The notes under the pieces were generated by a model. The model worked only from the letters and a program-made list of their open reading frames with translations. It made no database searches and was not told the origin of the DNA. This document shows positions 27,702 to 63,320 of a stretch of 64,000 nt of DNA, one piece after another. Every line of letters starts with the position of its first letter. Within the stretch, counting starts at the first letter, position 1. The translations under genes and the position numbers were made by a program. The stretch is from Candidatus Iainarchaeum sp. (GTDB lineage Archaea > Iainarchaeota > Iainarchaeia > Iainarchaeales > VGJJ01), in assembly GCA_043803765.1 (NCBI GenBank), contig JAZDJQ010000018.1:64001-128000 (forward strand), read 5' to 3'.

Positions 27702-27775
27702 GCCCGTGTGGTGTAGTCTGGATAGCATAAGGGCTTCCGGAGCCCTTGACCTGGGTTCAAATCCCAGCACGGGTG
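27702..27775 (+). tRNA. tRNA-Arg(CCG)
   Basis: GCCCGTG/CACGGGT-G; AGGGC-TTCCGGA-GCCCT; CTGGG-TTCAAAT-CCCAG. Confidence 0.95.
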
Positions 27776-27856
27776 TCTAGGGGTTGTTTTACAATCCCTT
27801 TACCGTTTTCCCCGGGCTTTTCTGAAAAGGCCGGTTCCGAATTCCAGCACGGGTGT
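27776..27856 (+). mobile_element. tRNA-anchored mini-element with duplicated tRNA-Arg 3' end
   Basis: CCAGCACGGGTGT at 27764 is repeated at 27844, preceded by TTTTCCCCGGGCTTTTCTGAAAAGGCCGGTTCCGAAT. Confidence 0.7.
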
Positions 27857-28269
27857 TATCTTTCTTTCAGAGGAAAGAACGAATACTAGAAACTGGATTG
27901 AGTGATACAATCCAATTTCCAATTAGAAAAAAGAGTTTTCCTCCACTCTTGAGAAGGAAAATTATTCCGATGAGGAATTGAATAAAACATATTATACTTA
28001 GCGCAAGCAACACTCCCGTTATGCGATGACGGGAAAGAAAAGGCCATTTTTCTTCAAGTGAAGCACGAACAAGACCAATGTATACGCTAAGACTGACACG
28101 AAAACAATAGATTTTTTCTTCCACATGAGCGGAAGCTGAATGAAAGAATGCTAGGAACGACATGATGAAACACCTATTTGGAGAGTATTACGCCAAAAAC
28201 TAATTTTTGGACGCACCAGCATGAAAAAAGAAACCCTTTATATGGGTTGATTTGCGAGACTATAACATA

Positions 28270-28863
28270 ATGAAACGAATTTCGTTAGAAAACATTCCCT
28301 TTTCATCCCCGCAAAAAGGATATGCTCCGAGGGAAGACTCATGGCTGCTTGCCCACCACCTCCCCAATGCGAAAGGAAAAAAATGCCTCGATATGGGTTG
28401 CGGAAGCGGAATACAGACAGCCGCACTGTTGGTGAATGAAGCAGAAGAAGTATGGTGCGTTGACATCAATCAGGATGCATTAGAAAAAACAAAAAAAATA
28501 GTCGAGAAGTATTTTCCAGGAAAAAAAACACATTATGTCCAATCCAATTTATTTGAAACGATTCTAAATGAAAAATTTGATATTATTGTATTTAATCCAC
28601 CCTATGTTCCAAGCGAAAAAATAAAATGGATGGAAGTAGACGGAGGAAAAAAAGGAAGGGAAATCATTGACGCATTCATTGAAAAAATTCCTTATCATCT
28701 AAATGAAAAAGGAGAATGCTATCTTCTTCAATCATCCCTCAATGGAATACCTATTACCGAAAAAAAAATACGAAAGCATGGAATGAACGGAGTAATTATT
28801 GCACGGCAGAAAATAGCTTTTGAAGAATTGATTATCTTTCGCATCAGTAAAAACAACCTTTAA
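28270..28863 (+). CDS. HemK2/Mtq2-like N5-glutamine methyltransferase
   Basis: YAPREDS, LDMGCGSG, FNPPY, DGG..GR. Confidence 0.9.
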   Translation: MKRISLENIPFSSPQKGYAPREDSWLLAHHLPNAKGKKCLDMGCGSGIQTAALLVNEAEEVWCVDINQDALEKTKKIVEKYFPGKKTHYVQSNLFETILNEKFDIIVFNPPYVPSEKIKWMEVDGGKKGREIIDAFIEKIPYHLNEKGECYLLQSSLNGIPITEKKIRKHGMNGVIIARQKIAFEELIIFRISKNNL

Positions 28864-28890
28864 ATGTACTTTCACCTGCAAATGCATGAC

Positions 28891-28974
28891 GCATGCGTAC
28901 CCAAGCGGTCTAAGGGGCCAGACTCAGACTCTGGTGGCTTAGTGCCTTCGGAGGTTCGAATCCTCCCGCGTGCA
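28891..28974 (+). tRNA. tRNA-Leu(CAG)
   Basis: GCATGCG/CGCGTGC-A; CCAGA-CTCAGAC-TCTGG; variable arm identical to tRNA-Leu(UAG). Confidence 0.95.
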
Positions 28975-29083
28975 TGTCCAGTTCCGATTGGACCAACCGG
29001 CGTAGCGTGATGGCATGCCATCACTCATCCATTTTTCCCCGGGCTTTTCACAAAAGGCCGGTTCTGAATCCTCCCGCGTGCAT
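28975..29083 (+). mobile_element. tRNA-anchored mini-element with duplicated tRNA-Leu 3' end
   Basis: GAATCCTCCCGCGTGCAT at 28958 is repeated exactly at 29066; 37-nt terminal motif 34/37 identical to the Arg element. Confidence 0.75.
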
Positions 29084-29191
29084 CGCGGGTTTCGCCCGGT
29101 CGAAATGAAGTAGCATTATAACGAACCATAACTCGTTTTCGCTCCTTTTGGGCATTTCATTTAATTACCCCTTTTACTATTCCTTCTTTTA

Positions 29192-29251
29192 GGGAATGAT
29201 GACGTAAACCCCGACTGACGAAAGGATGATGAATTAACTCACGTCTGACCC
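29192..29251 (+). ncRNA. Box C/D methylation-guide sRNA
   Basis: GGG-A-ATGATGA-CGTAAACCCCGA-CTGA-CGAAAGG-ATGATGA-ATTAACTCACGT-CTGA-CCC: four consensus boxes and two 12-nt guides. Confidence 0.9.
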
Positions 29252-29300
29252 GCTTTCTATTTCCATGGGGGTTAAAAACAGGAAAATGGTTTTCTTACGC

Positions 29301-29999
29301 ATGGTTATTACTTTAACGTTAACCCAAGCCGAATCAAAGAAAGTAATAGAAAAATTAAGGGAATACCCTTCTTTACCTATTCCATCCGCGTATGAGAAGG
29401 CACGCCACCAAGTGGGAGATGCACGTGTAACCGTGTATGCGAGCGGAAAAGTGGTTATCCAAGCAAAAAACAACGAAGTGGAAGAAGCCATTCATGAACG
29501 AATAACGAAATGGTTAGGAAATGAATTAGACGAACTAGTGCTTGGAATGGATGAAACAGGAAGAGGAGAACGGCACGGCCCACTCGTGGTAAGCGGAGTG
29601 TTAGGACAGCGCAACCAACTGCGCGCCGTGAGGGACTCTAAAAAAACACACAACATCAAAGGAGCATATCATACTGCAACCCATAAAAGTAAAATGCAAG
29701 TAAGCGTCTCATTCAATGCTGAAACAATTGACGAACTAAGGAGAAAAGGAATCACGCTCAACGAGATGGAAAGCCATGCCATGCAAAAAATACATGAACT
29801 GATTAACGTTTTTTTCCCTGAATCGATCACGATTGCGGATGGAAAACCTCTTAAAAAAGGAATGAAGGGAATTATTTTTCAAGAAAAAGCAGATGACACC
29901 GAACCAAGTGTAGCAGCAGCAAGTATTGTTGCCAAACATACACGAAATGAGAGTGGAGACCAAAATGAACGGAAAACATGGAAGCGAATTGCGGATTAA
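29301..29999 (+). CDS. RNase HII/HIII-family nuclease with N-terminal TBP-like (DUF3378-type) domain
   Basis: VTVYASGKVVIQ N-domain; GMDETGRG, VRDSKK, KAD...VAAASIVAK. Confidence 0.8.
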   Translation: MVITLTLTQAESKKVIEKLREYPSLPIPSAYEKARHQVGDARVTVYASGKVVIQAKNNEVEEAIHERITKWLGNELDELVLGMDETGRGERHGPLVVSGVLGQRNQLRAVRDSKKTHNIKGAYHTATHKSKMQVSVSFNAETIDELRRKGITLNEMESHAMQKIHELINVFFPESITIADGKPLKKGMKGIIFQEKADDTEPSVAAASIVAKHTRNESGDQNERKTWKRIAD

Positions 30000-30531
30000 C
30001 CCGCATTCCAGAATAAAAATGATCAACGCGGCAAAGGCGCCGGATGTTCGATTATGGACAAATGAAAATTTGGCCGAGAAAAAAGAGATTCTTCCTCCAA
30101 AAAGACTAACCCGAGACGAGAGGATAAGATGGTATTCGCAAAGGGATATCAAAATAAGGAGCATTATCAGAAAAGAAAACGAACGAAAAATGAAGATGGA
30201 GGATGAATTCAGGAAAATGGCAAGAAAAGAAGGGCACCTCTCCGAGGAAGCGATCAACAAGATGGAGCCACTGGCCATTAAATTGTTCAGGGTGGAAATG
30301 AGACTGCATCGAATGGAAATATTAGCACTATTGCATCGGACCTATTGGGAAATCGAGGAAAGAAACCCGACACCAGAGGAGTCCAAGCGAATATGGAAAG
30401 AAACCCAAGACGTCATCGAATCCTACCGCAACGTAGAACGGGAAATGATTGAAATGATTAACCATTCCACTGAACGGAAAGGCGGGATAAGAGACATGAT
30501 TATACGATCATTAAGGAAAAAGCGGGATTAG
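29965..30531 (+). CDS. Hypothetical charged helical protein
   Basis: Long E/R/K-rich ORF; start codon uncertain. Confidence 0.55.
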   Translation: MNGKHGSELRINPHSRIKMINAAKAPDVRLWTNENLAEKKEILPPKRLTRDERIRWYSQRDIKIRSIIRKENERKMKMEDEFRKMARKEGHLSEEAINKMEPLAIKLFRVEMRLHRMEILALLHRTYWEIEERNPTPEESKRIWKETQDVIESYRNVEREMIEMINHSTERKGGIRDMIIRSLRKKRD

Positions 30532-31103
30532 AGAACCGCCACCCCTTTTTTCAGGAGAGCAGCCTCCTTCTTAGATAAGGAAAATCGCCGGACGTTTTTT
30601 CCGATCAACGCACTCCCTCCATACGGGTCTAACACCCGCACGGTGAAAGACATTTTTCCTTCTTTGCATTTGGTTAAGTCGCGTATTCTTTCTTTTGCCG
30701 CTTTCGCCTGCTTAGGATTATCACTTTTCATCAGCACGGACAAAACATCCGAAACACGCTCAAGCAGGCCTTCAATATTAGTAAAAAATCCTTCGGCAAA
30801 AGAACCGGGCTCTAATACTACCCCTAATTCTGGAATTTCAACTGTTCCTGAAGAATTGCGAACGATTTTGGTTTCCAAGTCCTTCTCTTTGTGAATACGA
30901 ACATCAAAACCAGTAGGAGAATTGAATTCTAGACTCATCACGTCGGACCATTTCATTCCGCAATGCGAACAAGAAAGAGACTGAAGAAGAATCCTACCAA
31001 AATAAGGAACGTTTTCAACCAATTGAATAATGACGGCCTCCTTCTTACACTGCGGACAAGGAACATGGACAATCGAATGAGGTTCTTCATCTTTTTTCTT
31101 CAT
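30528..31103 (-). CDS. ZPR1 zinc-finger protein
   Basis: CPQC...VPYFG...CSHCG, IPELG, TNIEGLL, DPYGGS. Confidence 0.92.
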   Translation of the reverse strand: MKKKDEEPHSIVHVPCPQCKKEAVIIQLVENVPYFGRILLQSLSCSHCGMKWSDVMSLEFNSPTGFDVRIHKEKDLETKIVRNSSGTVEIPELGVVLEPGSFAEGFFTNIEGLLERVSDVLSVLMKSDNPKQAKAAKERIRDLTKCKEGKMSFTVRVLDPYGGSALIGKNVRRFSLSKKEAALLKKGVAVL

Positions 31104-31444
31104 TATGAAACACTCTTCTTCTTTCGTGCATTCCTCACCGGAATGGATTCCAACCAGTTTTTATTCGAATGAAAAGAACGCTCTAATTCCTGCACCCGCT
31201 TCTCAACATCTTCCAAACGGGAAAAAAGCTGGGTTATTTTTACCTGTATTGGGGTAATAGGAGTTTCACGAGAAGAAAAAATGGAATCATTTTCATTAGG
31301 AATTGAAGGAAGGGGAGGGGAAATAGTAGGAGGAATGAATGCGACTCTTACTTGATTTTTTTTCTTAGGAAAAAAATGAACGAGTGCATTCAATAGTAAT
31401 AGAAAAATAGCCACCACCGCTAATACAAAAGAAGTATCAACCAT
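31103..31444 (-). CDS. Small membrane-anchored coiled-coil protein
   Basis: N-terminal TM, Pro linker and short coiled coil; translationally coupled to ZPR1. Confidence 0.6.
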   Translation of the reverse strand: MVDTSFVLAVVAIFLLLLNALVHFFPKKKNQVRVAFIPPTISPPLPSIPNENDSIFSSRETPITPIQVKITQLFSRLEDVEKRVQELERSFHSNKNWLESIPVRNARKKKSVS

Positions 31445-31451
31445 TTCAGCA

Positions 31452-32216
31452 TCACACCCTCGAACTGTTTATAGTTAACGTTGGAAAAAAACGAGCAAAA
31501 AGATGTTCCTGCGCACGCTCAACTTCTTCAAGAGAAACCCCTTTTATTTCCGCCACACGACGCGCAACGAGTGGAATCCAACTCGGGTCAGAAGGCTTCC
31601 CGCCAAAAGGAATAGGAGAATCCGTTTCCAACCCTATCAACTCAAGGGGCTGATTTTGAATAAAGGTATCCATATGAGAAGAATTCAAAATAGCCGGACC
31701 TACCGTGCATACCCATTTTTTCTCAATAATAAGACGTTGCTGGGTTGGATTGCCTGAAAACCAATGCAAAATTACCTTTTGGGCACCCCCCTCGCTTAAT
31801 CGATCCAAACATTGTTGTTTTGCATGACGAGAGTGAACCACAATGAGTTTATCATATTCTACCGCCCATTCAATAAACTGACGAAAAACATGCATTTGCA
31901 ATGATTGCTTCTCAGTCGTATCCCCATACAAAAAATCAAGACCGGTTTCTCCAAGGTAAGGAGCATCTTCCACATGACCCTTATACCAAGCAAGCGTTTT
32001 TTCTATGAGAGCGGGGGATTTTATCACTTCTTCAGGATGCCAACCCAATCCAATAAGGGTAGGATGCGAAGAAAAACCACCACTAAAAGCATTCCAATTG
32101 GAAGGAGAAATGGTATTTTGACACCACCAAGAAACGTTTGCCTTAACGGAATGCCTTGCTGCTTCCTGGGGAGAAGGAGAATCCAAAATATGGGTATGAA
32201 AATCAATCCAGGGCAT
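31452..32216 (-). CDS. tatD: TatD-family nuclease
   Basis: DFHTH, GWHPE, GETGLD, VHSR, HWF, ETDSP. Confidence 0.92.
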   Translation of the reverse strand: MPWIDFHTHILDSPSPQEAARHSVKANVSWWCQNTISPSNWNAFSGGFSSHPTLIGLGWHPEEVIKSPALIEKTLAWYKGHVEDAPYLGETGLDFLYGDTTEKQSLQMHVFRQFIEWAVEYDKLIVVHSRHAKQQCLDRLSEGGAQKVILHWFSGNPTQQRLIIEKKWVCTVGPAILNSSHMDTFIQNQPLELIGLETDSPIPFGGKPSDPSWIPLVARRVAEIKGVSLEEVERAQEHLFARFFPTLTINSSRV

Positions 32217-32273
32217 GGGTACTACTAGCCGGGATAATGCTCATTTTAAAGGAATTCCATAAAAGAAAGGCAT

Positions 32274-33410
32274 ATGGACCCCACTCTTAACGGGTTATCT
32301 GAAAACGAACCAACATCACGGGCGGCAGCCCATACTCCTCGGGCGCTCGCCATCGCAGGAATAATCATTGTTTTGTTATTCATTGTGGGTTTTCTCATAT
32401 TCTCACGATTAACCACTCCAACACCGGAAGAACCAATTGTTCTGCCCGTGAAGGTAAAACTACTCGCCGACACATCCTGTACACTATGCCCGCAAACGAA
32501 TACCCTGCTTGCAAAACTAGATGAAGGAAACGTCCAGTATGAGTTAGAAACAGTTGACATTTATTCGGAGGAAGGAAAAGAACTTGCAACCGAATTCGAA
32601 ATAAGTTATGCTCCTGCCCTCCTTGTGAGTGTAGCAGGACTAGACCAAAACACGATGATTCAAAGCGCACTCCTTGGAAAATACATCAAGGAACCGCTCA
32701 AAACAAAAAAAGGATGGATTGTTGTTCCAGAAAAATTTTTAGACAAAGAACCTAAACTTCTCACGTTTATCAATCAACCCACTACTTGTGAAGTACCAGA
32801 AGGAAAAATACTTTTAACCGCATTCATGGATTATGGAGACTGCAAGCCCTGCATCGACGCATACAAAAAATTAACAGCCGTTACGGAAAAATACACGAAT
32901 GTAGTAGTGGATTACACCCCTATCATGTACCAACGCACTACCATTACGGCGATTAACAAAGCGTTCACTTCAAACAAAGGAGCCGTGTGCGCTGAAAAAC
33001 TAGGATTTTTGGATGATTACACCGGATGCAATTATTTCAATTCCCAATTCTATGGAAATCTGGATATTAACTTTATGAAATCCTGCATTGCTGAAGCAGG
33101 AGGAAAAAGCAAAGAAAAGCAGACCGAATTCGTTGAATGCGTAAATGATGCAAATTCTACCACCGATGCACAACTTATCCAAAATAGTCAAACAAATGAA
33201 AAATGGAACCCTATTGAGTATACTCCTTCCTTTGTATTGGATTGCACGTATTCATTTGTAGGGCAGAACAGCATTGAACCCTATCTCTGCTATTTCCACC
33301 CTGAACTAGAAGGGTGTATTTCCATCCTCGACGAGGAAGGCATACTGAATACCCCTATTCAAAATACCCCTATTCAGCAAACAGAAACCGAAGACATGAA
33401 TGATGAGTAA
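32274..33410 (+). CDS. Membrane-anchored double thioredoxin/DsbA-like protein
   Basis: TM; CTLC and CKPC motifs; TPSFV. Confidence 0.75.
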   Translation: MDPTLNGLSENEPTSRAAAHTPRALAIAGIIIVLLFIVGFLIFSRLTTPTPEEPIVLPVKVKLLADTSCTLCPQTNTLLAKLDEGNVQYELETVDIYSEEGKELATEFEISYAPALLVSVAGLDQNTMIQSALLGKYIKEPLKTKKGWIVVPEKFLDKEPKLLTFINQPTTCEVPEGKILLTAFMDYGDCKPCIDAYKKLTAVTEKYTNVVVDYTPIMYQRTTITAINKAFTSNKGAVCAEKLGFLDDYTGCNYFNSQFYGNLDINFMKSCIAEAGGKSKEKQTEFVECVNDANSTTDAQLIQNSQTNEKWNPIEYTPSFVLDCTYSFVGQNSIEPYLCYFHPELEGCISILDEEGILNTPIQNTPIQQTETEDMNDE

Positions 33411-33451
33411 ATACGCAAGCCTAAAAACAACTCATTACGTTTATTCTACCT

Positions 33452-34588
33452 ATGACCACGAATGTTTCAATCGAATACGCGAATGCACAAGACAAACTAG
33501 ACCGTGCCAAAACACCCTATGAAAAACTCGCGGCATTAGAAGAAATGAAAAGTTATGCCCCATCCCATAAAGGAGCAGAAAAACTCCGAGCGGAAATCAA
33601 CCACAAAATAGCCCAACTCAAACTCGACATTGAAAAAGACAAAAAACAATCCGCCAAAAGAGGAGGAGGACCCACGCTCGCCGTAAAAAAAGAAGGAGCG
33701 GGACAAATCGTATTAGTAGGACTGCCCAACGCGGGAAAAAGCACATTATTCAATGCCCTCACCGGATTAAACGCACCAGTAGGAGACTATGAATATACTA
33801 CGGTTCAACCCCAAGTAGGAATGGTTGATTTCAAAGGAGCCAAAATACAACTTGTAGACTTGCCCCCCATTTCCGAAGGAAGCGCAGAAGGAAAATTCAA
33901 TGGAAAAGAAATACTCGCCGTGATACGAAATGCCGATGCCATCGTATTAGTTGTGCGTGCGGAGAACCCCGCCCACGAATACTTACTATTACAAAAAGAA
34001 TTAGAAAAAGCAGGCATTTCGCTGAATAGGAAAAAACCAAACGTGAGCATCACCCCCACCCCCTTCCCCGGTTTTTCTCTCACCGGAAAAGAATTTCTCA
34101 AAATTCCACAAGAACAATTAGTCGAGTATCTCAAAAAAATAGGAATGCACAACGTGCACGTGATTCTACGAGAGAATACCACACTGGATGTGGTGGCGGA
34201 AGTACTAAATGAAAAACTAGTGTATCGAAAAGCCATGATTATTGTCATGAAAAGCGTTGAGAAAAAAGAAACAAAACGAGACGAAAAAGGACTCATCGTG
34301 TTCACATGGCAGGATGATAAAGAATCAAAAAAAGAAGCGGTTGATTTATTATTCGAGATTCTGGACAAAGTATTCGTTTACACTAAAAAACCGGGAACGG
34401 CTGCCGCGACACTCCCACTAATCGTACCAAAAGGAGCAACCGTATTAAACGTCGCCGAACTCATACACAAAGATATCGTTCAAACACTCAAATCCGCCAA
34501 AATATGGGGAAGCACCAAATTTGAAGGACAACGAGTAGCAAAAGATTATGTAGTGCAGAATGGGGATATTGTCGAATTCTGCTGGTAA
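33452..34588 (+). CDS. DRG-family (OBG) GTPase with TGS domain
   Basis: GLPNAGKST, YEYTT, DLPP, C-terminal TGS domain. Confidence 0.92.
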   Translation: MTTNVSIEYANAQDKLDRAKTPYEKLAALEEMKSYAPSHKGAEKLRAEINHKIAQLKLDIEKDKKQSAKRGGGPTLAVKKEGAGQIVLVGLPNAGKSTLFNALTGLNAPVGDYEYTTVQPQVGMVDFKGAKIQLVDLPPISEGSAEGKFNGKEILAVIRNADAIVLVVRAENPAHEYLLLQKELEKAGISLNRKKPNVSITPTPFPGFSLTGKEFLKIPQEQLVEYLKKIGMHNVHVILRENTTLDVVAEVLNEKLVYRKAMIIVMKSVEKKETKRDEKGLIVFTWQDDKESKKEAVDLLFEILDKVFVYTKKPGTAAATLPLIVPKGATVLNVAELIHKDIVQTLKSAKIWGSTKFEGQRVAKDYVVQNGDIVEFCW

Positions 34589-34609
34589 AAAAAAATGAAA
34601 AAAATATTT

Positions 34610-35893: not shown

Positions 35894-35969
35894 CACAGGG
35901 AGAAAAAAACCCATTATAGGTTATAATCCCTCCCCTACACATAGTGTAGAGAAGGGTCACCTATTTCCC

Positions 35970-36043
35970 GGGGATGTAGTGTAACCTGGTTATCACGGCA
36001 GGCTCCAGACCTGCAAATCGGGGTTCAAATCCCTGCGTCCCCA
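35970..36043 (+). tRNA. tRNA-Trp(CCA), intron-less
   Basis: GGGGATG/CGTCCCC-A; GCAGG-CTCCAGA-CCTGC; CGGGG-TTCAAAT-CCCTG. Confidence 0.95.
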
Positions 36044-36102
36044 CTTTACCATATACAGAAATTCGCCGTAGGAATAAAACGCCTTCCACTACCCCTGAGG
36101 AA

Positions 36103-50319: not shown

Positions 50320-50412
50320 ACGGGGCGGGAGAGATTCAGAACGCACCCCTTTTTCTTTAAAAGAAAAAGTCGCGCCCGGTCAAAAAGAACAACCCATTCA
50401 CAAAAAACAAAA
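50320..50412 (-). mobile_element. tRNA-anchored mini-element with duplicated tRNA-Pro 3' end
   Basis: ACGGGGCGGGAGAGATT at 50320 and 50412; minus strand reads ...CCGGGCGCGACTTTTTC...GAAAAAGGGGTGCG-TTCTG-AATCTCTCCCGCCCCG. Confidence 0.7.
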
Positions 50413-50485
50413 CGGGGCGGGAGAGATTTGAACTCTCGCCTGCACCTCCCGAAGGTGCAATCCTACCAGGCTAGACGACCGCCCC
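50413..50485 (-). tRNA. tRNA-Pro(CGG)
   Basis: GGGGCGG/CCGCCCC-G; GCACC-TTCGGGA-GGTGC; GAGAG-TTCAAAT-CTCTC. Confidence 0.93.
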
Positions 50486-50554
50486 AGTAAAAACAGTCGT
50501 ATCTCACACTGTGTGAAATACCCTTAAAAATGGGCTTTCCATTGGTTGGGCAGT

Positions 50555-54289: not shown

Positions 54290-54358
54290 TATCCGAAAAA
54301 GGGCTGGGGGGAATTAAAAGCCTATTTAAGGAAAAGTTCCCTATTAACCACACGGAAA

Positions 54359-54431
54359 AGCCCCGTCGTCTAGTGGTCAAGGATATCGGACTTTGAATCC
54401 GAGGACCGGCGTTCGAATCGCCGCGGGGCTA
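54359..54431 (+). tRNA. tRNA-Gln(UUG)
   Basis: AGCCCCG/CGGGGCT-A (A1-U72); TCGGA-CTTTGAA-TCCGA. Confidence 0.95.
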
Positions 54432-54535
54432 CTTTCTCACCGGCCTACGGCGGGTGAAAAACACCCGCCTCAGTAGTCCATTAGCGCCGGCTGATAATGC
54501 GGCCGGTTCGGTATCGCTACGAGGCTACTTTCTCA
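54432..54535 (+). mobile_element. tRNA-anchored mini-element with diverged duplicate of the tRNA-Gln 3' end
   Basis: 54417-54439 versus 54513-54535 is 20/23 identical; preceded by GGCCGGTTCG. Confidence 0.65.
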
Positions 54536-56033: not shown

Positions 56034-56047
56034 GGTTGAGTGAAATC

Positions 56048-57555: not shown

Positions 57556-57617
57556 CCCGAACCGATTTGGGGCAAGATTGGGAATGGTTTATAACCCAAA
57601 ACCACGCTCTCATTGAA

Positions 57618-59369
57618 ATGAAAACCATTCCAACGTGGAACCTTTCTACCTTATTCAAAACAGAAAAAGAGTTACACCAATTAGTAAAAAAAATCGAAGA
57701 AAGAGCAAATCGTTTTACGCACTATCGAAAACAACTCGAAAAACCTTCCCGCATGCTGATAAACACCATCATGGAAGAAAAAGAAAAAATTCACGAAGAA
57801 ATGAACAAAGTTGGAGCGTACGCTCACTTACAATTCTCCCAAAATACACAAGACGAAAAAGCCAAAACACTCGAATCACAAATAGGAAAAACGTTCACAC
57901 GTATAGGAAACAAGATGCTTTTTTTTGACTTATGGTGGAAAAAACAGGATGAAAAAAAAGCACGCTCATTACTCCCGCAAAATAAAGAATACACATTTAT
58001 CCTAACCGAATCACGAAAGCACGCAAAATACGCACTAAGCGAAAAAGAAGAACAATTAGCCAACATCAAAGATGATACAGGAGAGGAAGCACTATTGAAA
58101 GTGTATAACATCCTCACAAACGCCTACACATTCCCATGGAAAAGCGAAGGAAAAACGACTCTTATTTCAGAGGAAGAATTGAAAAAGTATTTCAAGTCAC
58201 CAAACCCAAAAGAACGAGAGGAAGCGTATGATTTGTTATGGGAAAAAAGCAAGAAAGAAAGCCCCGTGTTAGGAGAAATATACCGGAACTTGGTATTGGA
58301 TTACTGGAATGAAGGAATCCACCTGCGAAAATACAAAAGCCCCGTCACCATCCGGAACATGGGAAATGACTTACGTGATGAAATAGTAGATACCTTTCTT
58401 GACGTGTGCGAAAAAAACACAGAAATATTCCAGGATTATTTTGAATGGAAAATGAAAAAAATACGCGTTCCATTATCCCGATACCATGTGTATGCCCCAC
58501 TTCCCCACCCCAGAGGAAAGTGGACGTTTGAAGAAGGATATGAAACCGTGATGCAGGCATACGAAGAATTTTCCCCCCGATTCAAAGAAGAAGCCCATCG
58601 CGTACTGAAAGAAAAAAGAATGGACGCACAACTTAGAAAAGGAAAAAGAGGAGGGGCATTCTGCATGGGCATTATTCCGGGAGAAACAAGTTTTGTTCTC
58701 CTGAATTGGATGGGAAACTACCACGACCTCTCCACGCTAGCACACGAATTAGGACACGCAACGCATAACCATTTGGCGGGAAAACACTCTATTTTTACCC
58801 ATCACGCAGGGCTGCCTCTTGCGGAAACCGCCTCCACTTTTAGTGAAATGCTATTGAATGAAAAAATACTGCGCGAAAGCAAGGATGCACAACTTAAACA
58901 ATACATTTTAGCTCACCAAATCGATGACGCATATGCCTCCATTCAAAGACAATCGTATTTTTGCTTATTTGAAAAAGAAGCATTCAACCTTATCCAAGAA
59001 GGAAAAACAATGGATGACGTTCACCATGCCTATTCTTCCAATCTCCGAAAACAATTTGGAAAAAAAATGCACATTCCAAAAGATGCAATGTATGAATGGC
59101 TAAACATCCCCCATTTATTCGAACAGCCATTTTATGTGTATGCATACGCGTTCGGACAATTACTCGTGTATGCGTTCTACCAACAATATGAGAAGGAAGG
59201 AAACGAATTCGTTAAACGCTATGAAAAATTCCTAACGTATGGAGGGAGCGAGCATCCTGAAAAGATGCTAATAGAGATGGGATTCGACCCAGCCAAAAAA
59301 AGAAGCTGGACAAACGGGTTCGATTTCCTTGAAAAAAAACTACAGCACCTCAAAAAAATGGAAGAATGA
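57618..59369 (+). CDS. pepF: M3B oligoendopeptidase F
   Basis: WNLSTLF, KRGGAF, TLAHELGH, AETAS, FYVYAY. Confidence 0.92.
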   Translation: MKTIPTWNLSTLFKTEKELHQLVKKIEERANRFTHYRKQLEKPSRMLINTIMEEKEKIHEEMNKVGAYAHLQFSQNTQDEKAKTLESQIGKTFTRIGNKMLFFDLWWKKQDEKKARSLLPQNKEYTFILTESRKHAKYALSEKEEQLANIKDDTGEEALLKVYNILTNAYTFPWKSEGKTTLISEEELKKYFKSPNPKEREEAYDLLWEKSKKESPVLGEIYRNLVLDYWNEGIHLRKYKSPVTIRNMGNDLRDEIVDTFLDVCEKNTEIFQDYFEWKMKKIRVPLSRYHVYAPLPHPRGKWTFEEGYETVMQAYEEFSPRFKEEAHRVLKEKRMDAQLRKGKRGGAFCMGIIPGETSFVLLNWMGNYHDLSTLAHELGHATHNHLAGKHSIFTHHAGLPLAETASTFSEMLLNEKILRESKDAQLKQYILAHQIDDAYASIQRQSYFCLFEKEAFNLIQEGKTMDDVHHAYSSNLRKQFGKKMHIPKDAMYEWLNIPHLFEQPFYVYAYAFGQLLVYAFYQQYEKEGNEFVKRYEKFLTYGGSEHPEKMLIEMGFDPAKKRSWTNGFDFLEKKLQHLKKMEE

Positions 59370-59379
59370 AAAAAATAAC

Positions 59380-60000
59380 TTATCGCTTGCGAAGAACATA
59401 GAAAAGAAACTTTTCGTGTCCGGGAAAAGAGGATTCCTTAAAATGAATCACATCAAAAAAAGGAGAAACCGCTCTTCTTACTTCCTCATCCGTAAAAAGA
59501 CTAAACCACCGTTTCACATCAGGAGAATCAACTTTCCACCCCTCTCCTTGACCCCCAAACAAGCCCAAACCCACCACACCATTGGGTTTAAGCATGCGAT
59601 GAATTTTTTCCAAAATAATGGGTATCCTAACTTTTCGCAGATGCAAAATAGACGCATACGCCCACACCCCATCCACGGTAGAATCGGGCATCGAAAATTT
59701 TTCCATATCGATTAAGTGAGTTTTGAACCCCTTCTCTTTACAATAGGTCAACATGCCCTCCGAATAATCAACGCACACCACGTCATAGCCCTTATCCCGA
59801 AAATAGCCCGCATGCACTCCAGGGCCGCTTCCCAAATCCACAATACATTTCCCATGCAATTCCCTCAAGAAAAATTGGATATTGAATCGGACGAACGTGT
59901 CCAAATCCTTTTCATATTGCTCCTTTTTCTTCAAAGCTAATTTATCATAGGCAGCACGCGTCTCCTCTTTATAGGATTCTAATTCACTGGAAAAAGGCAT
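59380..60000 (-). CDS. Class I SAM-dependent methyltransferase
   Basis: VDLGSGPG, DGVWAYASILH. Confidence 0.88.
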   Translation of the reverse strand: MPFSSELESYKEETRAAYDKLALKKKEQYEKDLDTFVRFNIQFFLRELHGKCIVDLGSGPGVHAGYFRDKGYDVVCVDYSEGMLTYCKEKGFKTHLIDMEKFSMPDSTVDGVWAYASILHLRKVRIPIILEKIHRMLKPNGVVGLGLFGGQGEGWKVDSPDVKRWFSLFTDEEVRRAVSPFFDVIHFKESSFPGHEKFLFYVLRKR

Positions 60001-60035
60001 AATGTATAATAAATCAGGGTGGTTTTTATTCCTAC

Positions 60036-60416
60036 ATGGAACCACCCAAGGAAATCAAGCATATTGTGCACCAGCTTTCCATCCTTCCTGGGATTACACG
60101 ATGGTATGTGTTAAACGATAATGAGAAAAAATACATTATGAATAACGAAGACGTGAACAATGAGGGAGTAAAGGAATCCGTGAAACGCCAATACTGCATA
60201 TGCCTTATTCACGATTCCGCGTGGAGAGAGCCCACGCAAACCATCGTAAAAAAAGAAAACGGGGAAATTATTTTTCCGCCGGTTGTCTTCCCCGAGGTTC
60301 CGGCAAAAAATGTCGTATCTTCCTCACCCGGAATTGCCATTCATACATGGTTAGCCCAAAAGGTACGCATCGAAAAAGAAGAAGCCACATTGCTCATCGG
60401 ATTCAATTTGGTTTGA
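60036..60416 (+). CDS. Hypothetical protein
   Basis: 126-aa globular-looking ORF. Confidence 0.65.
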   Translation: MEPPKEIKHIVHQLSILPGITRWYVLNDNEKKYIMNNEDVNNEGVKESVKRQYCICLIHDSAWREPTQTIVKKENGEIIFPPVVFPEVPAKNVVSSSPGIAIHTWLAQKVRIEKEEATLLIGFNLV

Positions 60417-60550
60417 AAAACAAACAATGTTCCACAATAGTGGAAGTCACATTCCACGATTGTCGCTCGTTCACGTAAAAAAATAGTCATGTTTATAACG
60501 ATTTTAGTTTTGGTTCAATCTATCTCTATTATTTTGGAGGAGAAAAAACC

Positions 60551-60769
60551 ATGACTGAAATGTACAAATGCAATGCCTGCGGATACACCCAAGAAATGCC
60601 GGGTGAACACTGCGGAGCACCCATGGTGAAAGTGGAGATGCCACAAGAAGAAGCACCCGCCCAACCTACACCTGTAGAAGAAACACCAACAATAGAAACC
60701 GACACAGCCTCTCCTGATACCGCCAACATGGAATCATCCGAGAACGAAACGAATAAACCCGCACAATAA
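60551..60769 (+). CDS. Small zinc-ribbon protein with acidic tail
   Basis: YKCNACG...HCGAPM; GGAGG SD. Confidence 0.75.
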   Translation: MTEMYKCNACGYTQEMPGEHCGAPMVKVEMPQEEAPAQPTPVEETPTIETDTASPDTANMESSENETNKPAQ

Positions 60770-60821
60770 ATAATGGAAAAACCCGGCCCGCATGAGCCGG
60801 GAAACCCTTTTTCTCTTTATT

Positions 60822-61457
60822 TCAGAAATTACGATACGCAGGAGAATGGAATGGCTTCACACGAAACAAGAAAGCGTGATAATTTTTTCCATCCGGAAGC
60901 GTTTTGGAAGAATAATGCAACTCATCAAAATGCTTCCCCATCATCAATCGAACATCCTCTAACGTGTAATAGGCAACCCACTGCTTGAACCCTTCACGAG
61001 GAGTATCCTCGTATCCTTCACCTTGTCCATCCGGAAGAGTGAGGAATAATATTCCATTCCCCATAAGAAGACGAGAAAAATGCTGAATAACCGCAAATGC
61101 TTTTTCTTTTGGCATATGATGAAGTGCCGTATTACCCCAAATACCATGAAATGAATGAGGATACAGAATAGGATGTTCAATATCCATACGCTTCGCATTC
61201 AATCCTTTCTCATGGCAACGTTGAATGAAAACATCCGACAAATCAATCCCCATTCCGTCTAACCCTTGATTGCGAAATGCTTCCAAAAAAACACCCGGAC
61301 CACACCCCACATCTAAAATGCGCGGTCCTTGAAGAGATGAAACAAATCGTTCCACATCGTCCTGTGCAAACTTTTCAAGGATTTCATGAAGATATGACTC
61401 ATACTCTTTAGCTTGCGACTCAAACGTGATAACCGTTTCTTTCTTGAAGGCTTCCAT
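60822..61457 (-). CDS. Class I SAM-dependent methyltransferase (paralog of 59380-60000)
   Basis: LDVGCGPG, GIWGNTALHH; shared GQGEG motif. Confidence 0.88.
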   Translation of the reverse strand: MEAFKKETVITFESQAKEYESYLHEILEKFAQDDVERFVSSLQGPRILDVGCGPGVFLEAFRNQGLDGMGIDLSDVFIQRCHEKGLNAKRMDIEHPILYPHSFHGIWGNTALHHMPKEKAFAVIQHFSRLLMGNGILFLTLPDGQGEGYEDTPREGFKQWVAYYTLEDVRLMMGKHFDELHYSSKTLPDGKNYHAFLFRVKPFHSPAYRNF

Positions 61458-61460
61458 CCA

Positions 61461-62411
61461 TTATTCCCCCTGCGGATTGCAAAGCGCCTCTAGTGTTACG
61501 TCTTTTATTCCATTTAAATCAAGGGCTTTCATTACCCGAACACGGGTGATTTTAGCACGTTTCATCCCCGAAAGCATCCCAACTACTTGAGTCCTGATAT
61601 CCGTTAAATCCGTCACAGGATAGTGTTCACATAATTCAAAATAGCGAGTAAGCAGCTCTAAACGAGGAAGGGATTTTTTCCCACCCACCTCCGAAAAAAT
61701 ATTTGGATCATGCCATGCTGCCCTGCCAATCATGACCAAATCACAATAGTTCTCCTCTATTTTTTCCAATACTTCTTCTGCAGAATGAATATCCCCATTT
61801 CCAATCAAGGGAATGGAAAGCATGGATTTAATTTTCTTAATATACTCCCAATCCGACTTTCCCGAATACCCTTGCTTTGCCGTACGCGCATGCAAGGCGA
61901 TTCCTTTCACTCCCGCATTCTCTATTTTTTTTACGAACGTATGCAATACGGGAACGTCCCATCCCATTCTCAATTTACACGTAACGGGTTTTGTTGAAAC
62001 TGAAACGGCAGCCTTCACCAATGAAACTATTTTTTCAGGACGCTTCAACAAATACGCACCGCATCCCCCTCCCGCCATTTTAGGAGAAGGACAGCCAAAA
62101 TTAATATCAATAATATCAAAATCACGCTCAACAAATTCAATAGCCGTAATCAAATCTTTTTCCTCAGGAGCAAACAATTGCACTCCAACAGGGTGTTCTT
62201 CCTTCACTGTTTCAATGCGATTGAACACCTTGTTGTTCGAAGCATTCCCACTCATGTTGCGCGCAATCGCAATCGCAGAAGCAAACTCCGTATACGTTAA
62301 ACTAGCACCTAACTCCTTGCACAACAAGCGAAAAGGAAGCGTTGAAATTCCCGACATGGGGGCTAATACCGCAGGAGAATGCAGTTGCAGACCCGCGTAG
62401 GAAAAAGACAT
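61461..62411 (-). CDS. dus: tRNA-dihydrouridine synthase
   Basis: LAPMSG, NFGCP, LHART, IGNGDI, MIGR. Confidence 0.92.
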   Translation of the reverse strand: MSFSYAGLQLHSPAVLAPMSGISTLPFRLLCKELGASLTYTEFASAIAIARNMSGNASNNKVFNRIETVKEEHPVGVQLFAPEEKDLITAIEFVERDFDIIDINFGCPSPKMAGGGCGAYLLKRPEKIVSLVKAAVSVSTKPVTCKLRMGWDVPVLHTFVKKIENAGVKGIALHARTAKQGYSGKSDWEYIKKIKSMLSIPLIGNGDIHSAEEVLEKIEENYCDLVMIGRAAWHDPNIFSEVGGKKSLPRLELLTRYFELCEHYPVTDLTDIRTQVVGMLSGMKRAKITRVRVMKALDLNGIKDVTLEALCNPQGE

Positions 62412-62562
62412 GATGAACTACTCGCGCATATGGGGTTATAGACCCGCCCGCGGGATGCCCTTTAAAAGCATTCGGAGGACGATTTCGTGAGCATGGGTTG
62501 ATGCTGGTCTCTTGGGATTTGAATAGTCCCATTGCCCATTCGCGTCAACGCATAATGTGATT

Positions 62563-62636
62563 GCACCGGTAGCTTAGTCTGGTGGAGCACCCGACTGATA
62601 ATCGGGAGGTCGGAGGTTCAAATCCTCCCCGGTGCA
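62563..62636 (+). tRNA. tRNA-Ile(GAU)
   Basis: GCACCGG/CCGGTGC-A; CCCGA-CTGATAA-TCGGG. Confidence 0.96.
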
Positions 62637-63320
62637 TTGGAGTTGGCGGTAAAGTGCCCCAATAAGAAAATTAGAATGGATTAAGGGGCATCCATGATTA
62701 GTGGTTTGAAATACTTCTGATAGTTTTCTTCCAATGTATTTCCGGTCGGATTAATCACCCATTCTTTTCGAATTATTTCAGCGTGCAGGCATTTGAGTTG
62801 GTGTTGAGCATGCTTGCGCTGTCTGACAATGTTTCCTTGCTCTCGTTTGCGTCCGCGTTTCTTTTGCCGATGGAGCAATTCTTCCACGGTAGGTCTTAGT
62901 ATTCGGGTGATGACGTTTATGCGTTTTTTCTTCAATGCGTTTTGATACCAAATAATGGGTTGGGGTGGATTGTCAAACACCACAAATTCGAATACGACAT
63001 TTTTTCCTTTCCTGATTTGTTGCATAATAGACTTGACGCTTAGGGGCTGGACAATGGCTTGTTCATAGGGGTGTCTATAAGTGTAGGGTTTGTGGTTGAT
63101 TTTCTTCCAAATGTCATCCTCAGAGATATGTGTCCAATTCTTGTATCGAGCAATGCGCTTGCCCATGCTGGATTTACCGCTTCCTGAAGGGCCAATGAGA
63201 AGGATGACGGAAGGCATACCGCTTGCAGGTGAATGGTACTTTTATTCACTTCTACCTACTTTTGCAAATTGTTCATTACAAAAGGCAGTTTCCCGCCATC
63301 TTCGCCCCATCCCCGGTGCA
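62637..63320. mobile_element. Single-gene mini-island at the tRNA-Ile(GAU) 3' end
   Basis: TCCCCGGTGCA at 62626 is repeated at 63310 (15/20 over TTC...GCA); the interval has inverted strand composition. Confidence 0.55.
62681..63217 (-). CDS. P-loop nucleotide/small-molecule kinase-like protein
   Basis: IGPSGSGKS, ISED, R...R lid. Confidence 0.8.
   Translation of the reverse strand: MPSVILLIGPSGSGKSSMGKRIARYKNWTHISEDDIWKKINHKPYTYRHPYEQAIVQPLSVKSIMQQIRKGKNVVFEFVVFDNPPQPIIWYQNALKKKRINVITRILRPTVEELLHRQKKRGRKREQGNIVRQRKHAQHQLKCLHAEIIRKEWVINPTGNTLEENYQKYFKPLIMDAP

What the first reader, a model, noticed from the sequence alone, without database searches (positions are those of the whole stretch)
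27702..63320. Synthesis: a candidate tRNA-targeted mini-element/cassette system
Seen: 5 of the 10 tRNA genes are followed by a duplicate of their own 3' end, at offsets of 80 (Arg-CCG), 108 (Leu-CAG), 92 (Pro-CGG), 96 (Gln-UUG) and 684 bp (Ile-GAU). In the four short cases the junction is the same: the element ends in a hairpin, then G-TTC-N-G, and tRNA identity resumes at the end of the T loop (TTCCGAAT, TTCTGAAT, TTCTGAAT, TTCGGTAT; an 8-nt version of the 7-nt loop). Established: tyrosine-integrase islands duplicate tRNA 3' ends with T-loop crossovers, but they are kb-sized and usually specific to one tRNA. Inference: one non-autonomous family recognises the T arm of many unrelated tRNAs, is mobilised in trans (tyrosine recombinase, HUH/RAYT nuclease or retro-mechanism), and can sometimes carry a gene, like an integron cassette.
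Basis: partly seen in the sequence, partly recalled or inferred. Interest (0 to 1): 0.88.

Follow-up and report, generated by a model that had tools for sequence, protein, structure and literature searches.

The report
Hairpin mini-inserts that duplicate tRNA ends
In this small archaeal genome about a quarter of the tRNA genes are followed by a short, non-coding, hairpin-containing insert that ends in a second copy of the tRNA's last 16-17 bases, which looks like the footprint of a family of tiny mobile cassettes aimed at the T-loop of tRNA genes, although no enzyme that moves them could be found.

Summary
All five duplications sit at the stated offsets. Genome-wide, 11 of 46 tRNA genes carry a copy of their own positions 58-73 within 300 nt downstream; the controls gave 1 of 2070, 0 of 46, 0 of 46 and 0 of 46.

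The far copy is always preceded by a palindromic hairpin, then (G)GTTC-N-G, so identity resumes exactly at tRNA position 58. The hairpins form repeat families with compensatory changes. They differ between congeners at the same tRNA, form arrays, and recur in other families of the order and in 14 of 14 metagenome contigs.

The 684-bp tRNA-Ile(GAU) case is different. It shares an arm with a classical integrase island at tRNA-Met. A counterpart at 5' ends exists at 5 of 46 tRNAs.

Best reading (0.42): attL/attR-like footprints of T-loop-targeting integrative cassettes, mostly empty. Kb-sized islands at tRNA-Tyr show the same altered T-loop junction. Rivals are a target-duplicating mini-transposon and host recombination or template switching.

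No Cas1, TnpB-type domain or reverse transcriptase was found. A Y1 transposase occurs in only 3 of 17 congeners. One complete congener with 10 elements has a single Xer-like recombinase.

The parts
27702..27775 (+). tRNA-Arg(CCG), complete gene; A58 at 27760
27776..27839 (+). 64-nt insert after tRNA-Arg(CCG): first hairpin, T-run, palindromic hairpin 27812-27834, then GTTC-N-G junction (27835-27839)
27840..27855 (+). far copy of tRNA-Arg(CCG) positions 58-73 (1 mismatch in 16)
28891..28974 (+). tRNA-Leu(CAG), complete gene; A58 at 28959
28975..29066 (+). 92-nt insert: two other hairpins, T-run, palindromic hairpin 29039-29061 (near-identical to the Arg-CCG one), GTTC-N-G junction
29067..29082 (+). 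far copy of tRNA-Leu(CAG) positions 58-73 (0 mismatches). It is followed by a hairpin trailer of the kind that directly follows this tRNA in relatives
50412..50486 (-). tRNA-Pro(CGG), complete gene; A58 at 50428
50337..50411 (-). insert with T-runs and a long A/T-rich palindrome (paired region 50339-50377), second hairpin family, ending in GTTC-N-G
50321..50336 (-). far copy of tRNA-Pro(CGG) positions 58-73 (0 mismatches)
54359..54432 (+). tRNA-Gln(UUG), complete gene; A58 at 54416
54433..54511 (+). insert with two hairpins (second: 54484-54509) and GTTC-G-G junction; older, more diverged member
54512..54527 (+). far copy of tRNA-Gln(UUG) positions 58-73 (4 mismatches); similarity continues about 11 nt past the tRNA end
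62562..62637 (+). tRNA-Ile(GAU), complete gene
62638..63320 (+). NOT the same family: 684-bp remnant of an integrase-type island, with a P-loop kinase-like ORF (62690-63217, minus strand, Pfam AAA_33) and a 12-nt copy of the tRNA end at 63309-63320. Its right arm matches the arms of the tRNA-Met islands on contig C14
27426..27701 (+). three tandem ~90-nt units upstream of tRNA-Arg(CCG). Each starts with a copy of the tRNA's first 16-17 nt (copies start at 27517 and 27611; a weaker one at about 27426, by eye) followed by hairpin modules: the 5'-end counterpart of the inserts
9335..9428 (+). similar upstream unit before tRNA-Ile(UAU); the 5' copy is too diverged for the 16-mer test and was recognised by eye and by a 17-nt BLAST match to the Arg-UCG unit

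Best explanation
The short inserts are footprints of DNA insertion into tRNA genes, not chance repeats and probably not RNA genes. A non-coding cassette sits between the intact tRNA and a displaced copy of tRNA positions 58 to 73/74. Reading outward from the tRNA, the cassette has a variable part (often a stable hairpin), a T-run, a palindromic A/T-cored hairpin and the constant junction (G)GTTC-N-G. This is the layout of attL/attR sites made when a circular element carrying a tRNA 3'-end look-alike recombines with the T-loop side of a tRNA gene. The tRNA stays whole and its old 3' end is pushed downstream. I infer that a tyrosine-recombinase-type, T-loop-targeting family of integrative elements made them, that repeated integration at the live tRNA gives arrays whose outer copies decay, and that most members are now (or always were) 'empty' cassettes of 50-200 bp, with a few carrying a gene. 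The hairpins are T-run palindromes of an order-wide repeat family and would act as terminators on both strands. Shown: the anatomy, the fixed junction, the family relationships, the polymorphism and the arrays. Inferred: the recombinase type, the direction of events and the terminator role.
For: Fixed junction: 13 of 13 G000 far copies are preceded by ..GTT(C)(N)G. In 7 of the 11 strict cases the tRNA has A at position 57 yet the far copy has G, so the junction is insert-borne and not copied from the target.

Kb-sized, gene-carrying islands in the same genome show the same signature: tRNA-Tyr has 4 serial copies at 2.2-10 kb, and 2 of them are preceded by a T-arm with a changed loop in which position 57 reads G (one of the two loops is 1 nt longer), with identity from position 58.

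Leu-CAG: the far copy, not the tRNA, is followed by the trailer hairpin seen directly after this tRNA in relatives.

G004 Arg-CCG: the far copy pairs perfectly with the T-stem while the tRNA's own 3' strand has a C-A mismatch, as if the 3' end had been replaced.

Arrays with outward decay: mismatches of 1, 3 and 4 in G007 Ser-GGA; three units at G002 Ser-UGA.

A 1-kb version with a 184-aa ORF ends in the same hairpin and junction.

In 5 of 33 young pairs the duplicated stretch runs on 14-70 nt past the tRNA end, which an att-borne copy allows.

Tyrosine recombinases of about 430-450 aa exist in G000 (2, plus a Xer-like one) and in 12 of 17 congeners. One sits directly after tRNA-Met with three far copies.
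Against: No recombinase is linked to any short insert. The complete congener G015 has 10 inserts whose ~110-nt units are 88-92% identical at different tRNAs, but only one Xer-like recombinase and no Y1.

The same hairpin variant serves 6-8 different tRNAs within one genome, and the variants are genome-specific. An att-borne copy of the tRNA end would have to be re-tailored for each tRNA.

Periods of 59-80 bp are too short to recombine as double-stranded circles (established knowledge of Cre/Int systems, recalled).

In 28 of 33 young pairs identity stops within 7 nt of position 72, which also fits a fixed ~17-bp target duplication.

Far copies pair worse than the tRNA's own end in 21 cases and better in only 1, of 35 differing pairs, so the 'replaced 3' end' signature rests on one case.

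No free attP-like element was found in IMG/VR (0 true hits among 20 pattern matches) or on tRNA-less contigs of G000.
Confidence: 0.42

Rival explanations
1. A non-autonomous mini-transposon (MITE-like) is moved in trans by an unidentified enzyme. The enzyme cuts tRNA genes at position 57/58 and at the gene's 3' boundary. Fill-in of the ~17-nt stagger duplicates positions 58-74, so the tRNA survives. The same enzyme would act in mirror image at the 5' end (cut at about 16/17).
For: Any tRNA can be colonised because the copy is made from the target. The same hairpin variant sits at many different tRNAs within one genome. The duplicated length is about 16-18 nt in 28 of 33 young pairs. A counterpart at 5' ends exists in 5 of 46 tRNAs against 1 of 2070 in the control. 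Internal modules occur in both orientations between tRNA and copy in G015. Precedent: the A. boonei casposase makes a 15-bp duplication next to the T-loop-coding part of tRNA-Pro (PMC5137440; abstract and passages read).
Against: The tRNA-proximal end of the inserts is not constant (0-70 nt of different hairpins) and there are no terminal inverted repeats. Five of 33 pairs have duplications of 14-70 nt beyond the core. Cas1 was not found. A Y1 transposase occurs in only 3 of 17 congeners. No DDE-type candidate was looked for systematically. The reading that the Ser-type upstream hairpin is the reverse complement of the downstream one is by eye; the covariance model gave only 6.9 bits there.
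Confidence: 0.2
2. No dedicated mobile element is involved. Host recombination or replication template switching between tRNA loci uses the near-universal T-loop sequence and the T-run/hairpin trailers as microhomology. It copies trailer modules from one tRNA locus to another and re-enters at the T-loop, creating the partial duplication. Unequal crossing-over then amplifies the units.
For: G015 has many recently copied units (88-92% identity) but only a Xer-like recombinase. Perfect tandem arrays exist in which the whole unit, including the trailer, is repeated (L281, at least 3 units with period 94; L293, 2 units). In G015 tRNA-Met, 67 nt of trailer are duplicated and part of the hairpin's 5' arm is native sequence. 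Far copies belonging to a different tRNA than the neighbour occur in 3 loci (G002 Leu-CAA, G004 Leu-CAG, G015 Leu-UAG), as expected from ectopic copying or rearrangement. Hairpins next to highly transcribed genes are classic template-switch sites (established knowledge, recalled).
Against: This does not explain why the junction is always the 8-nt form with G at position 57 rather than the recipient's own loop. It does not explain the origin of the first copy, nor gene-carrying versions. Microhomology of about 10 nt is short for frequent, precise events at more than 20 different tRNAs.
Confidence: 0.18
3. The hairpin-junction-core unit is a functional RNA. One option is a guide-like small RNA (a hairpin handle plus 16-17 nt identical to the tRNA 3' end, as in the short homing guides of CRISPR-associated transposons or TnpB guide RNAs). 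Another is a processing or termination signal or decoy for tRNA-binding factors.
For: The layout of hairpin, short linker, 16-17 nt match and T-run resembles a guide RNA with its terminator. Compensatory changes keep the hairpin (91% of cells paired, 2 pairs with GC<->AU swaps, 0 of 500 shuffles reach the score). Other hairpins in the inserts carry UUCG/GNRA-type loops typical of RNA (by eye).
Against: The 16-nt match decays freely: up to 4 mismatches in the window, and far copies pair worse in 21 of 35 differing pairs. The unit is absent or of another type at the same tRNA in congeners. No TnpB/Cas12-type domain or Cas1 was found. No Rfam family matches. Covariation is equally expected for a DNA hairpin.
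Confidence: 0.07
4. The far copies are exons or halves of split, permuted or T-loop-intron tRNA genes, as in Nanoarchaeum or Thermoproteales.
For: The junctions lie at positions (57/58 and about 16/17) where non-canonical archaeal introns are known (recalled). Hairpins of the same family lie inside canonical introns of tRNA-Glu in two other genomes of the order.
Against: Each adjacent tRNA is complete, and 45 distinct anticodons are present without using the fragments. An archaeal RNase P RNA is present. My hand check found no bulge-helix-bulge pairing between the two boundaries, which are direct repeats and not complementary. The far copies decay.
Confidence: 0.03

Closest known systems
tRNA-gene-targeting integrative elements with tyrosine integrases (attL/attR carrying a partial tRNA copy; 'gene capture' in archaeal chromosomes)
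   Same: The tRNA stays intact and a partial 3' copy marks the far end. The junction lies on the T-loop side. Serial arrays occur at one tRNA. Real kb-sized examples are present in this very genome at tRNA-Tyr, tRNA-Met, tRNA-Phe and tRNA-Ile(GAU). The literature describes 9-23-kb insertions with 44-bp repeats in Thermococcaceae (PMC9897764; passages read).
   Different: The inserts are 42-195 nt, non-coding and without an integrase. One hairpin family is shared by many different tRNAs. The repeat is only 16-17 nt. A counterpart exists at 5' ends.
Casposons (Cas1-dependent transposons)
   Same: Integration occurs next to the T-loop-coding part of a tRNA gene with a ~15-bp target duplication that overlaps the tRNA 3' end, and with a directional, 'leader-repeat'-like target (PMC5137440; abstract and passages read).
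   Different: There is no Cas1 in G000, no terminal inverted repeats and no polymerase. The duplication lies wholly inside the tRNA (positions 58-74), and the insert is tiny.
REP/BIME palindromic repeats with RAYT, and MITEs
   Same: Short, multi-copy, palindromic and non-coding, with mosaic combinations in both orientations and genome-specific variants.
   Different: They are almost confined to tRNA flanks (14 of 20 BLAST matches in G015 lie within 150 nt of a tRNA) and are tied to a copy of the tRNA end. A Y1 (HUH) gene occurs in only 3 of 17 congeners and is flanked by other hairpins.
Integron gene cassettes (attC hairpins)
   Same: Arrays of units each closed by an imperfect hairpin followed by a conserved G-TT... 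junction. Some units are empty and some carry one gene. New units appear to be added next to the fixed site.
   Different: There is no integron integrase: the two long recombinases score 44-46 bits against a 265-bit cut-off for the integron-integrase model. The boundary includes 16 nt of tRNA, the anchor is a tRNA gene rather than attI, and the host is an archaeon.
Short homing guides of type V-K CRISPR-associated transposons / TnpB guide RNAs (recalled, not tested against sequences)
   Same: A hairpin followed by about 17 nt identical to the 3' part of the neighbouring tRNA gene, located just downstream of that tRNA.
   Different: No Cas12/TnpB-type domain, Tn7-like genes or CRISPR repeats were found, and the matches decay.

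Membership tests
Integrase-type integrative element at a tRNA (att sites) | Direct repeat made of a tRNA 3' segment at both ends, with the tRNA intact | tested here: met
   11 of 46 tRNAs against 1 of 2070 in the control; window coordinates
Integrase-type integrative element at a tRNA (att sites) | Integrase gene within or next to the element | tested here: not met
   The short inserts are 42-195 nt and non-coding. The three PF00589 genes of G000 lie elsewhere. G015 has 10 inserts and one Xer-like gene
Integrase-type integrative element at a tRNA (att sites) | Excision to a circle / empty site in the population | not testable with these tools
   No sequencing run was listed, so no reads could be laid
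MITE / DDE-type non-autonomous transposon | Terminal inverted repeats at both ends | tested here: not met
   The tRNA-side end varies in sequence and length; the palindrome is internal, next to the far copy only
MITE / DDE-type non-autonomous transposon | Target-site duplication of fixed length | tested here: inconclusive
   Identity ends within 7 nt of position 72 in 28 of 33 young pairs, but runs 14-70 nt further in 5
REP elements with RAYT (Y1 HUH) | Single conserved RAYT gene flanked by the same palindromes | tested here: not met
   PF01797 in 3 of 17 congeners. In G000 it is an IS200-like gene flanked by different hairpins
Integron cassette array | Integron integrase (IntI) and attI next to the array | tested here: not met
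   TIGR02249 scores 44.4 and 45.7 bits against a cut-off of 265; the arrays start at tRNA genes
Casposon | Cas1 (casposase), family B polymerase, TIRs | tested here: not met
   PF01867: 0 matches in G000 while the control rang in 7 genomes; no TIRs; the polymerase was not searched for
IS200/IS605-TnpB or Cas12 guide RNA | TnpB/Cas12-type nuclease gene nearby or in the genome | tested here: not met
   PF07282: 0 matches in G000 while the control rang in 8 genomes
Retro-element | Reverse transcriptase | tested here: not met
   PF00078: 0 matches in G000; the genome is 93% complete, so absence is not proven
Split / intron-containing tRNA gene | Fragment needed to complete a tRNA; bulge-helix-bulge at the boundaries | tested here: not met
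   All adjacent tRNAs are complete. The boundaries are direct repeats; the hand check found no bulge-helix-bulge
Known RNA family (Rfam 15) | Match above gathering score | tested here: not met
   Only tRNA matches in the window. Nothing credible at E<=10 in 27250-29150

The most novel reading that the evidence does not exclude
A previously undescribed, trans-mobilised mini-cassette system specific for the ends of tRNA genes. A roughly 35-120-nt hairpin element inserts at the 'elbow' loop positions (57/58 at the 3' side, about 16/17 at the 5' side, in mirror image). The tRNA is regenerated by a ruler-like ~17-bp target duplication anchored at the gene boundary, so any tRNA can be colonised without harm. 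Successive insertions build outward-decaying arrays that can also hold genes. This would be an archaeal, tRNA-anchored analogue of casposon/CRISPR-type or integron-type integration, with an unknown enzyme (possibly the universal Xer-like recombinase or a host factor).
Probability: 0.2. Interest if true: 0.85.

Novelty: new variant of a known kind. Interest (0 to 1): 0.6.

Why it matters
Partial tRNA copies are the standard marker for large integrated elements. Here the same marker bounds inserts of 50-200 bp, at roughly a quarter of all tRNA genes, in a 1-Mb genome and across an archaeal order.

If these are integrative cassettes, they record a very active, so far unseen mobile-element traffic in small-genome archaea, and they give the attachment-site signature needed to find the free elements.

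If instead they insert by target duplication, they define a new tRNA-end-specific integration mechanism close to the casposon/CRISPR-adaptation theme.

There is also a practical point. The fragments and the tRNA-like upstream units can mislead tRNA and small-RNA annotation, and the hairpin modules look like a reusable bidirectional terminator family.

Tried and rejected
Chance: rejected by the controls.

Known RNA families: none.

Split or intron tRNA: rejected (see membership test).

RAYT/REP: the single Y1 gene of G000 is an IS200-like gene with other hairpins and is absent from 14 of 17 congeners.

Cas1, TnpB-type domain, RT: no match in G000. For the Y2 (IS91) family the control rang nowhere, so one search is uninformative.

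Free attP-bearing element:
- No tRNA core on tRNA-less contigs beyond chance level (about 4 chance hits expected by my estimate, 2-3 seen).
- Nothing on contig C17, which carries an integrase 92% identical to one in G004.
- IMG/VR pattern scans gave 0 matches, then 20 matches, none with the 5' hairpin arm or a tRNA core.

Genome-contig scan with a 17-mer: 120 loci, 0 of 120 with the hairpin's 5' arm, so chance matches only.

Metagenome search with the neighbouring methyltransferase protein: no relative found.

Sequencing runs: none was listed for window 27000-29300, and no RNA holder was listed, so read laying was not used and no empty/filled alleles, circles or transcripts could be examined.

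Close pair G010/G013 (92-95% identical flanks). I hoped for a clean empty versus filled site. Instead the segments downstream of tRNA-Arg(CCU) and tRNA-Val(CAC) are replaced by different 0.4-0.7-kb stretches. That shows a hot spot but gives no exact boundaries.

'Replaced 3' end' test: only 1 of 35 differing pairs favours the far copy.

Covariance model R1 on the upstream Ser-type units: 6.9 bits only, so their relation to the downstream hairpin rests on my reading of the sequence.

Supplementary files of papers were not consulted; the supplementary tables of PMC9897764 list further tRNA fragments and might include short cases.

Full report
**Setting.** The window is G000:C18:64001-128000 of a 1,022,810-bp, 19-contig assembly (93% complete). 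It has an archaeal RNase P RNA, 46 ARAGORN tRNA genes covering 45 distinct anticodons and about 42% G+C. I infer a small-genome, DPANN-like archaeon; no name was available to me. Sixteen genomes of the same genus and many of the same order could be searched.

From the tRNA coordinates alone, one search places position 58 and its downstream copy at:
- 27760/27840 (Arg-CCG)
- 28959/29067 (Leu-CAG)
- 50428/50336 (Pro-CGG, minus strand)
- 54416/54512 (Gln-UUG)
- 62621/63305 (Ile-GAU)

In the four short cases a predicted hairpin is followed by GTTC-N-G, and identity restarts at A58. The exact CCGG-G-CTTTT...AAAAG-G-CCGG hairpin is present in two of the four. Pro-CGG has a longer A/T-cored palindrome and Gln-UUG another one.

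**It is genome-wide and far from chance.** With the 16-nt core (positions 58-73, <=3 mismatches, 300 nt downstream), 11 of 46 tRNAs are positive. The controls were:
- cores of other tRNAs at other places: 1 of 2070
- own core upstream: 0 of 46
- reversed core: 0 of 46
- reverse-complement core: 0 of 46

Gln-UUG (4 mismatches) is a twelfth case. Val-GAC and Thr-GGU look like older, degenerate ones by eye. Scanning the genome for the junction motif found the hairpin-bearing form only next to tRNAs.

**Anatomy.** Reading outward from the tRNA there are five parts:
1. 0-70 nt of variable sequence, often a stable hairpin.
2. A T-run.
3. A palindrome with a GC clamp and an A/T core.
4. (G)GTTC-N-G.
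5. Positions 58-73/74 of the tRNA, again followed by T-rich sequence.

All 13 G000 far copies listed are preceded by ..GTT(C)(N)G. In 7 of the 11 strict cases the tRNA's own loop has A at position 57, so the G is not copied from the target. Among 33 pairs with at most one core mismatch, drawn from all the genomes I had, identity stops within 7 nt of position 72 in 28 and runs on 14-70 nt in 5.

**The hairpins are repeat families.**
- Twenty-two copies of the first type, from 9 genomes, align with a conserved T-run and junction.
- On that alignment 91% of cells pair, two pairs switch GC<->AU in 9-10 of 21 distinct rows, and 0 of 500 shuffles reach the covariation score.
- Variants are genome-specific but shared by different tRNAs within a genome.
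- In the complete congener G015, 10 of 47 ARAGORN calls have a far copy at 84-219 nt. There the spacer is a ~110-nt block of three hairpin modules, found in either orientation. Copies at different tRNAs are 88-92% identical, and 14 of 20 BLAST matches lie within 150 nt of a tRNA. The rest lie at gene ends.
- A covariance model of the first hairpin type hit 17 of 61 genomes sampled across the order.
- Of the 26 non-G000 loci inspected, at least 5, from 5 families, are a tRNA plus a copy of its own core. Others are the bare palindrome after a tRNA, between genes, or inside tRNA-Glu introns.
- A stricter pattern found 14 metagenome contigs, and 14 of 14 have the full architecture at G+C of 33-50%.
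- A genome of another family (G019, 25% G+C) had 0 of 20 tRNAs with a copy in the 400 kb examined.

**Turnover.**
- At tRNA-Arg(CCG) the congeners have no insert (G003), the second hairpin type (G004), the first type (G011), or the first type followed by the second with two far copies (G005).
- Leu-CAG carries an insert in G000 and G004 but not in G002, G003, G009 or G012.
- Arrays occur: three units at G002 Ser-UGA; three far copies with 1, 3 and 4 mismatches in G007; perfect tandem units in metagenome contigs L281 and L293.
- The close pair G010/G013 has different 0.4-0.7-kb segments after tRNA-Arg(CCU) and tRNA-Val(CAC), inside 92-95% identical flanks.
- Far copies generally decay. Of 35 differing pairs they pair worse with the tRNA's 5' strands in 21, equally in 13 and better in 1. 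Those rows include a few neighbouring-gene and chance rows.

**The fifth case is another family.** The tRNA-Ile(GAU) element has no hairpin/GTTC-N-G junction and only a 12-nt copy. Its right arm matches contig C14 at 16060-16137 (78% over 78 nt) and at 7254-7296 (91% over 43 nt). Those are the arms just before two of the three far copies of tRNA-Met. A 429-aa tyrosine recombinase starts about 60 nt after that tRNA-Met. The sequence right after the two tRNAs is also alike by eye. The element carries an AAA_33 P-loop ORF.

Classical islands also sit at tRNA-Tyr (four copies at 2.2-10 kb, with small genes between them) and at tRNA-Phe (753 bp, 31-nt repeat).

**Which mechanism?** The layout is that of attL/attR.

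Points for an integrase-type origin:
- The junction is insert-borne and constant.
- Two of the four tRNA-Tyr island junctions show the same altered T-loop with G at position 57 and identity from position 58.
- The Leu-CAG far copy keeps the native-type trailer.
- In G004 the far copy fits the T-stem better than the tRNA's own end.
- Gene-carrying versions end in the same hairpin.
- Some duplications extend beyond the tRNA.

Points against:
- No recombinase is linked to any short insert.
- G015 has one Xer-like recombinase only, and no Y1 or long integrase.
- One hairpin variant serves many tRNAs.
- The shortest periods are too small to recombine as duplex circles.

A target-duplicating mini-transposon would explain easy spread to any tRNA, the ~17-nt modal repeat and the 5'-end counterpart. 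The closest precedent is the casposase, whose target includes the T-loop-coding part of tRNA-Pro and which makes a 15-bp duplication (PMC5137440). However, the tRNA-side ends of the inserts are not constant, there are no terminal repeats and there is no Cas1.

Host recombination or template switching would fit G015, the perfect tandem arrays and three loci whose far copy belongs to another tRNA. It does not explain the constant junction.

A guide-like or other functional RNA is unlikely because the match decays and no effector is present.

I therefore rank the explanations as follows:

| Explanation | Probability |
|---|---|
| Integrative-cassette footprints | 0.42 |
| Target-duplicating mini-element | 0.20 |
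| Recombination / template switching | 0.18 |
| Functional RNA | 0.07 |
| Split or intron gene | 0.03 |
| Something else | remainder |

**The 5'-end counterpart.** Five of 46 tRNAs (Arg-UCU, Arg-UCG, Arg-CCG twice, Ser-UGA, Ser-GCU) have a copy of their first 16 nt 72-185 nt upstream. The controls were 1 of 2070, 0 and 0. Each copy is followed by hairpin modules and then the real tRNA. The TATA-like box lies upstream of the copy (by eye), so the real tRNA would be made with a structured leader and need RNase P. Window 27426-27701 holds three such units in tandem.

By eye the Ser-type unit contains the reverse complement of the downstream hairpin type, and the Arg-type unit has the module order of the G015 block. 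The covariance model did not confirm the former.

**Literature.** Two full-text searches (DPANN/tRNA/repeat/hairpin/intergenic; MITE/tRNA gene/archaea/target site duplication/hairpin) listed nothing describing short hairpin inserts bounded by tRNA-end copies. Searches listed work on integrase islands and archaeal tyrosine recombinases; I read only the listings. I read passages of PMC9897764, where tRNA fragments arise from 9-23-kb integrations, and of PMC5137440. Statements about Williams-type sublocation classes, type V-K homing guides, minimal circle sizes and intron positions are recalled, not checked.

**Verdict.** This is a real, statistically overwhelming and phylogenetically broad feature. 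Its kind, tRNA-end duplication by insertion, is known. Its miniature, hairpin-bounded, many-tRNA form, with arrays and a 5'-end counterpart, does not appear in the papers I searched, and its mechanism is open.

Noticed in passing
window 27426-27701 and 9335-9428: Tandem ~90-nt units upstream of tRNA-Arg(CCG), and one upstream of tRNA-Ile(UAU). Each starts like the tRNA's 5' end and continues with two hairpins; the stems differ between units in a compensatory way (by eye). They would be transcribed as a long structured leader.
   Followed up: partly
window 9429-9503: A tRNA-Ile gene with anticodon UAU, alongside only two CAU tRNAs in the genome. This suggests AUA is read by a UAU tRNA rather than by a modified CAU tRNA.
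   Followed up: no
G000:C18:54700-54950 (outside the window): A tandem array of at least five ~46-nt units, each consisting of a T-run plus the palindromic hairpin, separated by ~12-nt related spacers and not next to a tRNA.
   Followed up: no
G000:C12:125700-135874: tRNA-Tyr followed by four serial segments (2.2, 3.4, 0.8 and 3.6 kb), each closed by a 15-nt copy of the tRNA end. They carry small genes, including what look by eye like HicA/HicB-type pairs, and a 580-aa ORF.
   Followed up: partly
G000:C14:4800-33591: tRNA-Met with a 429-aa tyrosine recombinase starting about 60 nt downstream and three 11-12-nt copies of the tRNA end at 17.4, 26.3 and 28.7 kb. This is the same arm family as the Ile-GAU remnant in the window, with a further copy at C18:145-211.
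   Followed up: partly
G000:C17:13581-14936 and G004:C19:13395-14747: A 451-aa Zn-ribbon tyrosine recombinase that is 92% identical between two species whose shared genes are only about 70% identical in DNA. This points to a recently exchanged mobile element.
   Followed up: no
G000:C4:1-930: An IS200-type Y1 transposase gene about 260 nt downstream of tRNA-Arg(CCU), flanked by hairpins with a shared loop motif. A solo copy of its upstream hairpin region lies before tRNA-Ala(CGC) on contig C2.
   Followed up: partly
L234 (G039) and L250 (G048): The same palindromic hairpin family lies inside the canonical intron of tRNA-Glu(UUC) in two other genomes of the order.
   Followed up: no
G015, G019 and several loci: Many tRNAs are followed directly by a short hairpin with a UUCG-like loop, then a conserved GC-rich linker and a second hairpin plus T-run. 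This occurs even in the 25%-G+C genome G019 and may be an order-wide tRNA trailer or terminator signal.
   Followed up: no
L307 (G010 tRNA-Ser-UGA) and L310 (G013 tRNA-Leu-GAG): The palindromic hairpin also sits immediately upstream of a tRNA, its last bases abutting tRNA position 1 and leaving no room for a separate promoter.
   Followed up: no
window 62690-63217 (minus strand): A 176-aa P-loop protein (Pfam AAA_33, E 5e-10; weak chloramphenicol-phosphotransferase-like and zeta-toxin-like matches) is the only cargo of the Ile-GAU remnant.
   Followed up: partly
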